A DNA stretch of 64,000 nucleotides from Patescibacteria group bacterium (GTDB lineage Bacteria; Patescibacteriota; Minisyncoccia; Phycocordibacterales; Phycocordibacteraceae). A model generated the notes under the pieces. That model saw nothing but the letters and a program-made list of their open reading frames with translations. It searched no databases and was not told the DNA's origin. The stretch is from NCBI GenBank assembly GCA_019744845.1, contig JAIETW010000001.1:80299-144298 (forward strand), given 5' to 3'. A program made the position numbers and the translations under genes. Of the stretch, positions 49,704-52,630 are shown piece after piece; positions within the stretch are counted from its first letter, which is position 1, and each line of letters opens with the position of its first letter.

Positions 49704-51485
49704 TTATTGCTCATTTTTACGTTCAAACAGAAGATCATCAGGAAGACGGAACAATCCTTCATCATTCTCTTTCTGCTCCATAAAGTGCGCAATGAAGCCC
49801 ACTGCGCGAGGAATCACAAAGAGTGCATTAAAGAACTCTGCATCAATGAGCTCCTGAATCTCCTTCTCGCCGTATCCTTCGCATTCAATAAGAATGTCTT
49901 GCATAAGAGCTGCAATGACGCCGTCTACGTTAAGAATCAAAGATCCGTTCTTACCCGTCGTTACCTTCTCAATTGAGCGTGCAAAGTCGTAGTGCGGGTG
50001 GGTCTGGAGTAACTCTGCAAAAGATGAAAGCGCAGCCACACGAGGATCAGGAATACCCACACGATACTTACGATGCCCAATACCAGAGATTACCTTTCCT
50101 CCCTTCGTTGCTGACTCCACAAAATCAGCTGCAGATTGACCAGAGGCAAGTCCTGCGCGCCAGGTGCGTGCCGCTTCATTAATAGCACCCCCAAAACGTG
50201 GACCAATGGTAAGGAGTCCTGAAGTGAGCGAGGACACGAGATCTTTTCCTGCACGTGCCGTCACCATCGTATTCACGGCACCAGAGACATGTCCTCCGTG
50301 ATCAATCAGGAGCGTAAAGATTGCTTCCGCAAATGCCTTCGTAACAGGAGATGAGGCAGGCTTTCCGAGGAGCGCAGCAATGACCGCGCTTCCGAACGGA
50401 CCTTCCTGTGCAACGAGCTTTCCACCCTCTACAAAGACGGGGACGGATTCAAGATCAGTCACGTGACGAGTAGAGAGAATGCTTTTCTGGCGAGTCATAA
50501 GTGGTTGTATATCGCTCATCGTATCACTGAAATCATTCCCCGGAAGGGTCTTCAACGCTTCAAGAAACTCTGGGAAGGTGTCGGGCGCAATCACACCAAC
50601 TCCTCTGAGTGCTTCACGTTTTGCACGTGCGCTCTCATCTTTATGCGCCACCAATGCCTTGGCGTGCCCAAACTGCATGTGTTCATCAAATGCTTCGTCC
50701 ACGATGCCTGCAATGTATGCAACGACGGGCTTGGTAAGCTTCTTCTCTTTTATCATCTCCACAATTTCATACTCATCTACCCCACCAAGCTCTCCGAAGT
50801 ACACCACACCCTTTGTGGCAGAATCTGTCTCTGCCAAAGAAAGCACATCACCAAGTGAAGAGACAGGGAATCTGTCTCCGCCGATACAGTATGAGAAGGA
50901 AAGTCGCTTCCCCGCGTTTGCGACCGCACGGATGAGCTCGCTTGTCATACCACCTGAGGTCGCGACGACTGCAACAGAGCCAGGAGTTGCAAGCTTACTT
51001 GCTTCTATCTGCATTGGATCTACTCCCCCAATGGCGCCAAGCTTCAAGTGTCCTGGCACAAGAATGCCGACACCTGATGGTCCTGCCACAAGCTTCCTTC
51101 CTCCGTACTTTTCTATAAGCGTGGTTGCATGCACTTCTGGTACGTTTTCCGCAAAAAGATGTGCCCCAAGTGCGTCTGGGAACGCGTCAAAGAATGCAGT
51201 CGTCGTCTCGTATGCCCTGCGTCCTGATTGCGCATTAAACAAGAACCGCACCTGTGATTTTAAAGAATCAGGCAGGGAAGTGAAATTCGGATAGCAGGGG
51301 ATAAGAATCTCCTTTGTTCCAAAGAAATACTTCTGTGCCTTACGTGCCCCAGTGATAATTGCAAGCACTGAACGCTTCTGTCCTGAGAGATAATCAAAAT
51401 CCAAGATGGACTGCACAATCCCTGGATGGTTTCCAGCCACTACTATGCCCCGCTCGCCTTTTCGTATGAGATCAAGAGTACTCAT
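49704..51485 (-). CDS. aclA: ATP-citrate lyase alpha/large subunit (CoA-binding, CoA-ligase and citrate-synthase-like citryl-CoA lyase domains)
   Basis: [11 protein letters not shown]...[11 protein letters not shown]. Phospho-His loop MQFGHAKAL. The 23-residue block [25 protein letters not shown] is nearly identical to eukaryotic ACLY. Length 593 aa. Confidence 0.85.
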   Translation of the reverse strand: [593 protein letters not shown]

Positions 51486-52630
51486 GGTGCAACAAAGTGA
51501 ATGGCATCGTCTACCGCGCTTGTAATAACGGCATCTGAGCCATGTACTGACCCAAGAAGCGCCTCTGTCTCTAGAAACGCTTTCATGTCTGTAAGTCCCT
51601 TCGCCTCATTTGGTCCTCCACGACGAATAAAGATCTTTACTCCTTGTGTCCTAAGTTCATGAGCTACTTCAGAAAGTGCATCTCTAATACCCGCGAAGGT
51701 TTTTGCCACATCCGTAAAATTTGCGACCCCTCCTGCAATCACGAGCGCCTTCTTCTTTGCCGTAGACGAGAGCATCAGTGCGAGTACTTCTTTCGCATAA
51801 AGATAGGTTTCTTCGCGTGTTGGTCCCCCACTATATTCTCCGTAGTTTCCTATCGCCTCTCCTTGCCCTTGAAGTGCGGCCTCGTCAGCAATGACGATGG
51901 AACCTCCTCCCCCCGAAAGAAGAAAGAACAGCGAACCGTTTTCATTCAGTACTGAAAGTTTCAATGACGCTGGCGTCGTCTTCTGAAGTGTCGCCACTTT
52001 CTCCTCTGCCTCGTGTGCACTGCGACCTTCTACGACATCATCCTCCGTCCATGCACCACGCACAAAGAATTCTCCGGCACTGTCTACCAACACCGCTGCA
52101 TCAAGAAGGTGTACCTGACTTCCGAGGATGACGAGTGGATTGATCTCAAGAAATGCGAAGTGCATCTTTGAGAACGTCTCAAGAAGGTGCGCAAGGAATG
52201 ATTCAGGGATTCCAGTCTTCTCTGCAATCTCTTTAAGAGAGGTGTCGCTACTAATTATATAGCTTTGCACCTTTTCTGGATGTTCTTCAATCTCTATGCC
52301 TCCTTCTTTTGCATGCAGAAGGCGAATCCCGTCACGTACTCGCTCAAGAGAGAGATACTGCTCTTCAGAGCTCTCATGTGGAAGAAAAGGTTCAGCAATA
52401 AAGCGGGTAAAACCCTTCTGGCTCCATTCTGATAGTGCAGGGGGAATCTCTCTCGAAGAGACTTTCACCTTTACCAATCCCTGCTTCATGCGCTTCTTCA
52501 CTCCCTGATCCACTTTCACCACCCAGGTACCCTCTGCTGTAGTATCGCCGACACCTAGAGCCACGCCTGTATATGCATCCCCAAGGATGAGGCTCTTTGC
52601 TTTATGTTCGGTAAGTTTGACGCGTGGCAT
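51482..52630 (-). CDS. aclB: ATP-citrate lyase beta/small subunit (ATP-grasp, SCS-beta-like)
   Basis: EINPLVILGSQVHLLDAAVLVD, ANYGEYSGGPTREETYLYAKEVLALM, IAGGVANFTDVAKTFAGI and IFIRRGGPN align block-for-block with the ACLY N-terminal half. Overlaps aclA by 4 nt. Confidence 0.85.
   Translation of the reverse strand: MPRVKLTEHKAKSLILGDAYTGVALGVGDTTAEGTWVVKVDQGVKKRMKQGLVKVKVSSREIPPALSEWSQKGFTRFIAEPFLPHESSEEQYLSLERVRDGIRLLHAKEGGIEIEEHPEKVQSYIISSDTSLKEIAEKTGIPESFLAHLLETFSKMHFAFLEINPLVILGSQVHLLDAAVLVDSAGEFFVRGAWTEDDVVEGRSAHEAEEKVATLQKTTPASLKLSVLNENGSLFFLLSGGGGSIVIADEAALQGQGEAIGNYGEYSGGPTREETYLYAKEVLALMLSSTAKKKALVIAGGVANFTDVAKTFAGIRDALSEVAHELRTQGVKIFIRRGGPNEAKGLTDMKAFLETEALLGSVHGSDAVITSAVDDAIHFVAP

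What the first reader, a model, noticed from the sequence alone, without database searches (positions are those of the whole stretch)
49704..52630. Two-subunit ATP-citrate lyase (aclB-aclA) in an otherwise streamlined, biosynthetically minimal genome
Both subunits are unambiguous. The 23-residue block [25 protein letters not shown] and the ANYGEYSGGP / EINPLV blocks are nearly identical to eukaryotic and Chlorobium ACL. The phospho-His loop FGHA is present. ACL is the signature enzyme of the reductive TCA cycle. It normally occurs in autotrophs (Chlorobi, Nitrospirae, Aquificae, Campylobacterota) and in eukaryotes. Here it sits between the nucleotide-excision-repair genes uvrA and uvrB, in a genome whose other genes point to a reduced, CPR-like lifestyle (short AlaRS/UvrC, cysteine-free L36, SWIB). 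No TCA enzymes are in the window. That raises two questions: what ACL does here (acetyl-CoA supply from scavenged citrate, or the reverse reaction) and whether it was horizontally acquired.
Basis: partly seen in the sequence, partly recalled or inferred. Interest (0 to 1): 0.65.

Follow-up and report, generated by a model that had tools for sequence, protein, structure and literature searches.

The report
GNAT-linked ATP-citrate lyase in CPR bacterium
A tiny-genome (Patescibacteria/CPR) bacterium carries an intact two-subunit ATP-citrate lyase; it is an old, clade-wide trait that is always co-encoded with an acetyltransferase, so it most likely turns scavenged citrate into acetyl-CoA for acetylation reactions and does not fix carbon.

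Summary
aclB (51482-52630, -) and aclA (49704-51485, -) overlap by 4 nt. They match ACL-specific Pfam models and solved ACLY structures far better than succinyl-CoA synthetase or citryl-CoA synthetase/lyase, and every catalytic residue checked is conserved.

The source is a Patescibacteria MAG. ACL is not an oddity there: more than 120 database clusters and 38 species-level genomes of Kaiserbacteria/Paceibacteria carry close orthologues. These form a clade with 100% bootstrap support. Base composition and codon usage look native, and dN/dS is 0.03-0.07. Recent horizontal transfer is therefore not supported.

Stand-alone ACL in CPR, with citrate scavenging as its role, is already published (Sieber 2019; a 2026 groundwater study).

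- A GNAT acetyltransferase (52633-53220) lies 2 nt upstream of aclB. A GNAT of one of two unrelated subfamilies accompanies aclBA in 32 of 32 related loci, across at least four different flanking contexts.
- This clade has a GHAKA phospho-histidine loop instead of the otherwise near-universal GHAGA.
- The genome is not "biosynthetically minimal": purine and pyrimidine de novo operons and an F-ATPase are nearby.

Best reading: an ATP-driven, citrate-fed supply of acetyl-CoA and oxaloacetate, coupled to acetylation.

The parts
52633..53220 (-). GNAT acetyltransferase ('f4' type, 195 aa), first gene of the module. Its stop codon lies 2 nt before the aclB start.
   Evidence: Pfam Acetyltransf_1 and Acetyltransf_3. 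AF2 model with pLDDT 92.3 and a GNAT fold. The family is seen only in this CPR lineage. Junction sequence TAG-at-ATG. dN/dS 0.034.
51482..52630 (-). aclB, the ATP-citrate lyase small (beta) subunit, 382 aa: ATP-grasp domain plus citrate-binding domain.
   Evidence: Pfam Citrate_synth_N and Citrate_bind, both above gathering score. PDB: human ACLY 7e-56, M. concilii ACLY-A 1e-51, Chlorobium AclB 6e-35, Ccs large subunit 2e-11. Equivalents of ATP-site residues K58/R66/E118/N203/D216 and citrate-site residues G309/N346/T348/R379 are conserved in the printed alignment.
52049..52531 (-). ATP-grasp domain of AclB (residues 34-194).
   Evidence: Pfam PF24948 match.
51497..52024 (-). Citrate-binding domain of AclB (residues 203-378), including the NYGEYSGGP and ANFT loops.
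   Evidence: Pfam PF16114, 172 bits; alignment to 3mwd.
49704..51485 (-). aclA, the ATP-citrate lyase large (alpha) subunit, 593 aa: CoA-binding and phospho-His domains fused to a citryl-CoA-lyase (citrate-synthase-homology) domain. Its start overlaps the aclB stop (ATGA).
   Evidence: Pfam Ligase_CoA, Succ_CoA_lig and Citrate_synt. PDB: human ACLY 4e-98, M. concilii ACLY-B 4e-91, Chlorobium AclA 1e-56, SCS-alpha 7e-21, Ccl and Ccs 3e-17 and 5e-17. Overlap verified.
50655..50672 (-). Phospho-histidine loop FGHAKA. His274 (codon 50664-50666) corresponds to human H760; Lys276 replaces the usual Gly.
   Evidence: Translation. Alignment to human H760. GHAKA is characteristic of this clade, against GHAGA in nearly all other ACL clades sampled.
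49746..50360 (-). Citryl-CoA lyase / citrate-synthase-homology domain, with His396, His471-Arg472 and Asp521 (human H900, H975-R976, D1026).
   Evidence: Pfam PF00285; residue mapping.

Best explanation
Window 49704-53220 (minus strand) is a three-gene operon, GNAT-aclB-aclA, in a Patescibacteria (Paceibacteria/Kaiserbacteria-type) genome.

AclB and AclA form a canonical heteromeric ATP-citrate lyase. By homology, the steps are as follows. The ATP-grasp domain of AclB phosphorylates His274 of AclA. The phosphate passes to citrate bound on AclB, giving citryl-phosphate. CoA attack gives citryl-CoA. The C-terminal citrate-synthase-homology domain of AclA (His396, His471/Arg472, Asp521) then cleaves citryl-CoA to acetyl-CoA and oxaloacetate.

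The organism shows no TCA or rTCA context. The enzyme therefore most likely plays the 'cytosolic, eukaryote-like' role: it converts citrate scavenged from a host or the surroundings into acetyl-CoA, at the cost of one ATP.

The acetyl-CoA is used at least in part by the co-translated GNAT acetyltransferase. Its acceptor is unknown; the structural neighbours lean towards protein N-terminal or lysine acetyltransferases. The oxaloacetate plausibly feeds aspartate for the purine and pyrimidine operons encoded nearby.

Shown: enzyme identity, intact catalytic residues, operon structure, clade-wide conservation, purifying selection, and the GNAT linkage. Inferred: reaction direction, citrate import, the GNAT acceptor, and the fate of oxaloacetate.

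The trait is old and vertically inherited within this CPR clade. It is not a recent acquisition.
For: Identity: ACL-specific Pfam domains score above their gathering thresholds, while all NCBIfam SCS, CCL and CS models fall far below their cutoffs. PDB phmmer ranks ACLY far above SCS and Ccs/Ccl.

Catalytic and substrate residues are conserved.

Operon: a 2-nt GNAT/aclB gap and a 4-nt aclB/aclA overlap, with no promoter-like or terminator-like site at either gene junction.

Organism: the exact protein is in NCBI as 'Patescibacteria group bacterium' on a 554-kb contig.

Distribution: the top 120 database clusters are at least 66% identical, and every named one is CPR. 38 GTDB species representatives carry it.

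Vertical inheritance: the CPR-I clade has 100/100 bootstrap support. GC is 0.489-0.502 against a window mean of 0.496, and codon usage is typical. dN/dS is 0.03-0.07.

GNAT linkage: 31 of 32 loci have a GNAT on the same strand upstream of aclB, 27 of them within 12 nt, and the 32nd has one directly after aclA. The linkage persists across at least four different flanking contexts. It also persists across two GNAT subfamilies that share only the AcCoA motif and are interleaved on the AclA tree. A deeper branch has a membrane Acyl_transf_3 O-acyltransferase in the same slot.

No TCA genes are in the window. Aspartate-consuming purC/purB/pyrB operons are nearby.

Literature precedent for citrate scavenging by stand-alone ACL in CPR: PMC6851277 and PMC13014828.
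Against: Only about 64-75 kb of a genome of at least 554 kb could be read. The absence of TCA or rTCA enzymes, PFOR/PDH, Pta-Ack, a citrate transporter or an aspartate aminotransferase in the whole genome is therefore untested.

No citrate transporter is next to the operon in this window or in most relatives. One deep branch has an EamA-family transporter upstream of aclB.

The GNAT acceptor is unknown, and the best Foldseek TM-scores are only about 0.6.

Gene adjacency does not prove metabolic coupling.

The G-to-K change in the phospho-His loop has unknown kinetic consequences.

The ACL reaction is close to equilibrium, so sequence alone cannot give its direction.
Confidence: 0.7

Rival explanations
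1. The enzyme runs in reverse, as an ATP-yielding citrate synthase: acetyl-CoA + oxaloacetate + ADP + Pi gives citrate + CoA + ATP. This would provide substrate-level phosphorylation for a fermentative CPR cell, as described for Desulfobacter postgatei (Moller et al. 1987, from my own knowledge).
For: The ACL reaction is near equilibrium (established biochemistry). CPR bacteria rely on substrate-level phosphorylation. No dedicated citrate importer lies next to the operon.
Against: This would need independent supplies of both acetyl-CoA and oxaloacetate, plus citrate export; none of these is visible. It does not explain why an acetyl-CoA-consuming GNAT or acyltransferase is co-encoded in 32 of 32 loci. 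The window also encodes an F1Fo ATPase.
Confidence: 0.12
2. The GNAT-aclBA adjacency is inherited synteny with no functional meaning. ACL supplies a general acetyl-CoA pool (GlmU, other acetylations), and the GNAT is an unrelated housekeeping enzyme such as a RimI/RimJ-like ribosomal-protein acetyltransferase.
For: The operon is embedded in housekeeping genes (aaRS, RecO, Uvr). The f9 type is nearest to RimI, though below cutoff. f4 matches Acetyltransf_3, the RimJ/L-like family. The Saccharibacteria ACL clade and the P0128-cluster locus in the deep CPR-I branches have no acyltransferase neighbour.
Against: The linkage survives at least four rearranged flanking contexts. It also survives swapping between two non-orthologous GNAT families, with spacings of 4-12 nt. 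An unrelated O-acyltransferase occupies the same slot in another branch.
Confidence: 0.2
3. The source organism is a conventional rTCA autotroph, and ACL is its carbon-fixation enzyme.
For: ACL is the classic rTCA marker. Automated pipelines score it that way (e.g. PMC12930757).
Against: The genome is Patescibacteria. No rTCA enzyme is found in 64 kb plus flanks. The protein is only 28.5% identical to Chlorobiaceae AclA. The literature treats CPR ACL as stand-alone.
Confidence: 0.03
4. The ORFs are mis-called succinyl-CoA synthetase or separate citryl-CoA synthetase/lyase (CcsAB/Ccl), or they are a recent horizontal acquisition or a binning contaminant.
For: The families are homologous; NCBI labels some orthologues 'citrate/2-methylcitrate synthase' or 'hypothetical'.
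Against: SCS models score 40-100 bits against cutoffs above 330, and CCL models also fall below their cutoffs. The ligase and lyase modules are fused in one 593-aa chain, which defines AclA. Composition is native. The genes lie inside a 554-kb contig between uvrB and uvrA, with the same order in four related genomes.
Confidence: 0.02

Closest known systems
Two-subunit ACL of a Gracilibacterium (CPR), Sieber et al. 2019, mBio (PMC6851277)
   Same: A stand-alone aclB/aclA pair in a CPR genome that lacks a TCA cycle. Its proposed role is cleavage of scavenged citrate to acetyl-CoA and oxaloacetate.
   Different: The host lineage differs (Gracilibacteria versus Paceibacteria/Kaiserbacteria). That enzyme has GHAGA, was reported as most similar to archaeal proteins (LGT), and was called 'rarely detected in CPR'. 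Here the loop is GHAKA, the genes belong to a large CPR-specific clade, and a GNAT is always co-encoded. I did not place the Gracilibacterium sequence on my tree.
Heteromeric ACLY-A/B of Methanothrix (Methanosaeta) concilii, PDB 6hxi/6znw, and human ACLY, PDB 6hxh/6poe etc.
   Same: These are the best solved-structure matches (1e-91 to 1e-98 for AclA; 1e-52 to 7e-56 for AclB). Domain order is the same and all catalytic residues are shared. In eukaryotes the enzyme makes cytosolic and nuclear acetyl-CoA outside any rTCA cycle, which is the role proposed here.
   Different: Identity is only about 35-36% over trimmed columns. Human ACLY is a single fused chain with a regulatory linker. The CPR proteins are shorter (382 + 593 aa) and carry GHAKA.
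Chlorobium limicola AclBA (rTCA enzyme), PDB 6hxj
   Same: Two-subunit architecture and the same chemistry.
   Different: It is much more distant (1e-56 and 6e-35; 28.5% identity to a Chlorobiaceae AclA). It works inside an autotrophic rTCA cycle.
Citryl-CoA synthetase (CcsAB) plus citryl-CoA lyase (Ccl) of Hydrogenobacter thermophilus, PDB 6hxq/6hxp
   Same: Homologous modules and the same overall reaction.
   Different: There the ligase and the lyase are separate proteins. Here they are fused in AclA, and similarity is weak (E 1e-11 to 1e-17).
Eukaryotic ACL-histone acetyltransferase modules (e.g. rice ACLA2-HAT1, PMC10241871)
   Same: ACL is paired with a GNAT-superfamily acetyltransferase, so that locally made acetyl-CoA drives a specific acetylation.
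   Different: In eukaryotes the coupling is by protein-protein interaction and the acceptor is a histone. Here the coupling is genomic (an operon) and the acceptor is unknown. This is an analogy only.

Membership tests
ATP-citrate lyase (EC 2.3.3.8), heteromeric AclA/AclB type | The small subunit has an ATP-grasp domain plus an ACL-type citrate-binding domain. | tested here: met
   PF24948 scores 105 bits (gathering score 83) and PF16114 scores 172 bits (gathering score 26.8). The match to ACLY N-terminal structures has E = 7e-56.
ATP-citrate lyase (EC 2.3.3.8), heteromeric AclA/AclB type | The large subunit fuses the CoA-binding/phospho-His ligase module to a C-terminal citryl-CoA lyase (citrate-synthase-homology) module in one chain. 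| tested here: met
   Ligase_CoA/Succ_CoA_lig at residues 168-314 and Citrate_synt at 376-580 lie in one 593-aa ORF. There are two-stretch matches to human ACLY residues 500-799 and 888-1091.
ATP-citrate lyase (EC 2.3.3.8), heteromeric AclA/AclB type | Catalytic phospho-histidine in a GHAGA loop. | tested here: met
   His274 aligns with human H760. The loop reads GHAKA: the His is kept and the second Gly is replaced by Lys, as in nearly the whole CPR-I clade.
ATP-citrate lyase (EC 2.3.3.8), heteromeric AclA/AclB type | Lyase-site residues (human H900, H975/R976, D1026), and citrate- and ATP-site residues (G309, N346, T348, R379; K58, R66, E118, N203, D216). | tested here: met
   All are conserved in the HMMER alignments to human ACLY and in the multi-clade alignment.
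ATP-citrate lyase (EC 2.3.3.8), heteromeric AclA/AclB type | Citrate-, ATP- and CoA-dependent formation of acetyl-CoA and oxaloacetate. | not testable with these tools
   This needs an enzyme assay of recombinant AclAB.
Reductive TCA cycle (autotrophic context of bacterial ACL) | Co-occurrence with 2-oxoglutarate:ferredoxin oxidoreductase, fumarate reductase, aconitase and isocitrate dehydrogenase. | tested here: inconclusive
   None is present in the 64-kb window or in about 3 kb beyond its right edge. The rest of the genome, at least 554 kb, could not be read.
Succinyl-CoA synthetase (SucCD) | The proteins reach the SucC/SucD equivalog scores, and the alpha subunit has no lyase domain. | tested here: not met
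   TIGR01016 scores 43 bits against a cutoff of 376, and NF004230 scores 100 bits against 336. A citrate-synthase-homology domain is fused to the alpha-like subunit.
Citryl-CoA synthetase / citryl-CoA lyase (CcsAB + Ccl) | Separate ligase and lyase polypeptides, with the closest similarity to Hydrogenobacter CcsA/B and Ccl. | tested here: not met
   The ligase and the lyase are fused. E-values to 6hxq and 6hxp are 1e-11 to 1e-17, against 1e-56 to 1e-98 for ACLY. The NCBIfam CCL models fall below their cutoffs.
GNAT acetyltransferase superfamily (upstream gene) | GNAT fold with an acetyl-CoA-binding R/Q-x-x-G-x-G/A motif. | tested here: met
   Pfam Acetyltransf_1 and Acetyltransf_3. R134-G135-x-G137 is invariant in the family alignment. 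The AF2 model has pLDDT 92, with 382 PDB GNAT matches at E <= 1e-3. No NCBIfam model matched at all, so subfamily and acceptor are not resolved.

The most novel reading that the evidence does not exclude
GNAT-aclB-aclA is a dedicated 'citrate-powered acetylation module'. In Kaiserbacteria/Paceibacteria, which may lack any other route to acetyl-CoA, ACL would make acetyl-CoA on demand for a specific partner acetyltransferase that acts on proteins or on the cell envelope. The two activities would have been kept together as one mobile unit. This would be a prokaryotic counterpart of the eukaryotic ACL-histone-acetyltransferase axis. The clade-specific GHAKA phospho-His loop could be an adaptation to this role.
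Probability: 0.3. Interest if true: 0.7.

Novelty: new member of a known kind. Interest (0 to 1): 0.45.

Why it matters
ACL is routinely used as the marker gene for rTCA carbon fixation in metagenome surveys. Hundreds of ACL-carrying CPR genomes without a TCA cycle mean that such surveys can miscount autotrophs. For CPR biology the finding points to a concrete dependency: citrate taken from a host or neighbour would be the source of acetyl-CoA and possibly of aspartate carbon. The invariable pairing with an acetyltransferase gives a testable handle on what these ultra-small cells use acetyl-CoA for, given that they are generally thought to lack fatty-acid synthesis. It also adds a large, deep bacterial clade to the ACL tree that is used to discuss the origin of the eukaryotic enzyme.

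Tried and rejected
(1) SCS or Ccs/Ccl identity: rejected by NCBIfam cutoffs and PDB ranking.

(2) Recent HGT: rejected. GC, GC3 and codon-usage chi-square per codon are within the window's range, and the genes fall in a clade-wide, well-supported CPR group.

(3) uvrA/uvrB linkage as functional: rejected. It is present only in the four closest genomes (at least 80% identity) and absent from the others.

(4) RecO-GNAT fusions suggested by long ORFs in L003 and L023: these are start-codon artefacts. Only L036 looks like a real fusion, of a HAD-like domain to the GNAT.

(5) Assigning the GNAT acceptor: NCBIfam gave no hit, PDB sequence search gave only E > 0.1, and Foldseek gave many GNATs at TM about 0.6 with no clear subfamily.

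(6) Naming the outgroup clades: two cluster look-ups gave few names, namely Dojkabacteria, Saccharibacteria, a DPANN archaeon and Chlorobiaceae. The ultimate donor of the CPR clade stays unresolved. My NJ tree is only a rough guide for deep nodes; the Saccharibacteria+DPANN grouping had 4/100 support.

(7) Walking out of the window to find metabolic partners: the left-edge protein is not on record. The right edge gave only pyrC, pyrD and pyrE.

(8) Promoter and terminator scan of the operon: nothing above shuffled expectation.

(9) The 92-aa ORF overlapping the aclA 3' end: no Pfam match.
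Full report
OBSERVATION

The stop of the first overlaps the start of the second (ATGA). The quoted sequence blocks are present, except that 'ANYGEYSGGP' actually reads GNYGEYSGGP. uvrB lies upstream, and uvrA followed by uvrC lies downstream. Its TAG stop is 2 nt from the aclB ATG.

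IDENTITY

Pfam assigns the ACL-specific Citrate_synth_N (105 bits, gathering score 83) and Citrate_bind (172 bits) domains to the small subunit. It assigns Ligase_CoA, Succ_CoA_lig and Citrate_synt to the large one. NCBIfam models for succinyl-CoA synthetase, citryl-CoA lyase and citrate synthase all match only in part and far below their cutoffs, for example 100 bits against 336 for SucD.

Against all PDB sequences the hits rank as follows:
- Large subunit: human ACLY 4e-98, Methanothrix concilii ACLY-B 4e-91, Chlorobium limicola AclA 1e-56, SCS-alpha 7e-21, Hydrogenobacter Ccl and Ccs 3e-17 and 5e-17.
- Small subunit: the same order, 7e-56, 1e-51, 6e-35 and 2e-11.

In the printed alignments the following residues are all conserved:
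- the phospho-histidine (human H760, here His274);
- the lyase residues (H900, H975/R976, D1026, here His396, His471/Arg472, Asp521);
- the citrate-site residues (G309, N346, T348, R379);
- the ATP-grasp residues (K58, R66, E118, N203, D216).

ORGANISM AND DISTRIBUTION

The exact AclA sequence is NCBI K2Y00_00800, a 'hypothetical protein' of a 'Patescibacteria group bacterium', on a 554-kb contig. The best 120 database clusters are 66-100% identical. Every named one comes from Kaiserbacteria, Paceibacterota or Parcubacteria, and several are already annotated 'ATP citrate (pro-S)-lyase'. A scan of GTDB species representatives returned 38 loci, all from CPR MAGs.

In an exhaustive search of 1.8 billion 50%-identity representatives, 131 clusters scored at or below 1e-30. 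In a neighbour-joining tree the window's protein falls in a clade made of the Kaiserbacteria/Paceibacteria cluster plus six deeper cluster representatives. One of these is from a Dojkabacterium. The clade has 100/100 bootstrap support.

A separate CPR clade contains a Saccharibacteria protein at 33% identity. A DPANN archaeon, eukaryote-type fused ACLYs (about 36% identity) and Chlorobiaceae (28.5%) lie elsewhere. Deep branching order is not resolved by this rough tree.

IS IT HORIZONTALLY ACQUIRED?

Not recently. GC content (0.497, 0.489 and 0.502 for aclA, aclB and the GNAT), GC3 and codon-usage deviation all fall inside the distribution of the 40 window genes. The genes are under strong purifying selection: dN/dS against the closest relative is 0.034, 0.069 and 0.034, similar to uvrA and uvrB. 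The clade-wide distribution and the conserved local gene order point to long vertical inheritance within this part of the CPR. The ultimate origin of the clade remains open.

CONTEXT

The uvrB/uvrA flanks are shared only by the four closest genomes, those with at least 80% AclA identity. Most other loci have the order helicase, class-I aaRS, RecO, GNAT, aclB, aclA, a 660-aa membrane or surface protein, GlyRS, a PerM-type permease, MetRS, TatD. At least two further arrangements exist.

The constant element is an acetyltransferase. Of the 32 loci with enough upstream sequence, 31 have a GNAT on the same strand upstream of aclB, and in 27 of them the gap is 12 nt or less. The remaining locus has a GNAT immediately after aclA.

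Two GNAT families fill this slot. One is a ~200-aa family ('f4'), which includes the window's gene and is found only in this lineage: 32 hits in a 5.8-billion-protein database, with no NCBIfam match. The other is a generic ~145-aa GNAT ('f9'). The two share only the acetyl-CoA-binding motif (hhalign, 53 columns). They are interleaved on the AclA tree, so that near-identical AclA sisters carry different GNATs.

In deeper branches of the clade the neighbours vary:
- a membrane Acyl_transf_3 O-acyltransferase takes the same position upstream of aclB;
- an EamA-family transporter lies upstream and murB downstream;
- one P0128-cluster locus has no acyltransferase neighbour.
The Saccharibacteria-clade locus also has none, showing NUDIX, aclB, aclA, methyltransferase.

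The f4 protein models confidently as a GNAT (pLDDT 92.3). Its nearest solved structures are Arabidopsis NAT9, the protein lysine acetyltransferases Rv0998, PatZ and SlPAT, RimJ, AAC(6')-Ib and SpeG. TM-scores are only about 0.5-0.63, so the acceptor is unresolved.

THE GENOME IS NOT 'BIOSYNTHETICALLY MINIMAL' HERE

The window contains the following:
- purB-purC-purM-purE-purQ-purL (14136-21802);
- an F1Fo ATP synthase (33196-38981);
- pyrB, pyrF and part of pyrE (61976-63977).
The same contig continues with pyrC and pyrD. No TCA enzyme, citrate carrier, PFOR, Pta or AckA was found among about 45 ORFs, roughly a dozen of which have no Pfam match. PurC and PyrB both consume aspartate, which is made from oxaloacetate.

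MECHANISM PROPOSED

The chemistry follows the established ACLY mechanism; this is established knowledge, and residue conservation is shown here. ATP bound in the AclB ATP-grasp domain phosphorylates His274. Citrate bound on AclB becomes citryl-phosphate and then citryl-CoA. The C-terminal lyase domain of AclA cleaves citryl-CoA to acetyl-CoA and oxaloacetate.

The physiological reading is inferred. The enzyme would work outside any cycle, as eukaryotic cytosolic ACLY does. It would convert scavenged citrate into acetyl-CoA for the co-encoded acetyltransferase and for other acetylations, and into oxaloacetate, possibly for aspartate and nucleotide synthesis. I give this reading about 0.7.

The main rival is the reverse, ATP-yielding direction, known from Desulfobacter postgatei (my own knowledge). 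It cannot be excluded from sequence, but it does not explain the invariable pairing with acetyl-CoA consumers; I give it about 0.12. A further caveat is that the GNAT adjacency could be functionally neutral synteny (about 0.2). Its persistence through rearrangements and through replacement of the GNAT family argues against that.

COMPARISON WITH WHAT IS KNOWN

Stand-alone ACL in CPR is already published:
- Sieber et al. 2019 described a two-subunit ACL in a Gracilibacterium. They called it 'rarely detected in CPR' and proposed cleavage of imported citrate and acquisition from archaea.
- A 2025 study lists aclAB as enriched in Saccharimonadia MAGs.
- A 2026 groundwater study states that ACL-bearing Patescibacteria and DPANN could take up citrate released by rTCA organisms.
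- A 2025 analysis of eukaryotic central metabolism places eukaryotic ACLA/B next to DPANN and ACLY next to Thermoplasmatota-E3.

I found no paper on ACL in Kaiserbacteria. I found none on a prokaryotic GNAT-ACL gene linkage either. The only hits for ACL plus GNAT concern eukaryotic ACL-HAT modules such as rice ACLA2-HAT1.

The enzyme itself is thus a new member of a known kind. The clade-wide GNAT coupling and the GHAKA phospho-His loop appear to be unreported details.

VERDICT

Interest is moderate (0.45). The basic phenomenon is known, but the acetyltransferase linkage gives a specific and testable idea of why ultra-small bacteria keep an ATP-consuming citrate-cleaving enzyme.

Noticed in passing
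window 50655-50672 (-); alignment: The phospho-histidine loop reads FGHAKA. Lys at His+2 is shared by nearly all members of the CPR-I ACL clade (P0125 is the exception), whereas nearly all other sampled ACL clades, including eukaryotes, Chlorobiaceae, DPANN and Saccharibacteria, keep GHAGA. The same clade also has GHRKY instead of GHRVKS in the lyase domain.
   Followed up: partly
window 14136-21802 (-): A contiguous de novo purine block, purB-purC-purM-purE-purQ-purL. This is unexpected if the genome is assumed to be biosynthetically minimal.
   Followed up: partly
window 61976-63977 (-) and L049 432-4867: A complete pyrimidine operon, pyrC-pyrD-pyrE-pyrF-pyrB. pyrC and pyrD lie just beyond the right edge of the window.
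   Followed up: partly
window 33196-38981 (-): F1Fo ATP synthase operon. Alpha, beta and a subunits were confirmed by Pfam; gamma and the small subunits are inferred from position.
   Followed up: partly
window 5778-6425 (-): A DUF1028 protein has by far the most deviant codon usage in the window (chi-square per codon 0.755 against a mean of 0.17; GC3 0.36). It is a better candidate for horizontal acquisition than the ACL genes.
   Followed up: no
window 43595-43843 (+): A stand-alone 82-aa SWIB/MDM2-domain protein (111 bits), sitting among a tRNA cluster (tRNA-Ala, Pro, Val, Ala at 42097-44226).
   Followed up: no
window 58783-61527 (-): A 914-aa protein with DUF8128 and a HerA-like DUF87 ATPase domain, followed by a holin-family (Phage_holin_4_2) gene at 61594-61920.
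   Followed up: no
window 49456-49703 and ORF 49514-49792 (-): A 248-nt gap separates aclA from uvrA. It contains a 74-92 aa ORF that overlaps the aclA 3' end and has no Pfam match. Related genomes have different insertions (210-284 aa ORFs) at this spot.
   Followed up: partly
L036 5645-6817: In one related MAG (labelled Uhrbacteria) the f4 GNAT upstream of aclB carries an N-terminal ~190-aa extension with a DxDxT motif typical of HAD-like hydrolases. This appears to be a HAD-GNAT fusion.
   Followed up: partly
L041 1629-2729; L046 3-683 and 3676-4476; L044 6156-6767 and 9770-10450: Neighbours of aclBA in other CPR lineages: an Acyl_transf_3 O-acyltransferase and a sugar epimerase; an EamA transporter and MurB; a NUDIX hydrolase and a methyltransferase (Saccharibacteria clade). 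These suggest links to the cell envelope or to CoA and nucleotide metabolism.
   Followed up: partly
proteins P0140, P0146, P0149, P0150, P0152, P0156, P0157, P0160, P0163, P0164, P0171, P0176, P0180 (tree): A large, diverse group of single-chain (about 900-1080 aa) fused ACLs with Lys/Asn/Ile-rich sequences typical of AT-rich genomes. Their taxonomy is unknown, and they are distinct from the animal- and fungal-type ACLY representatives.
   Followed up: no
L009-L034, family 'f2' directly downstream of aclA: In 18 related loci a ~660-aa protein with an N-terminal membrane anchor and a repetitive beta-rich extracellular region immediately follows aclA. It is absent from the window, where uvrA follows instead.
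   Followed up: no
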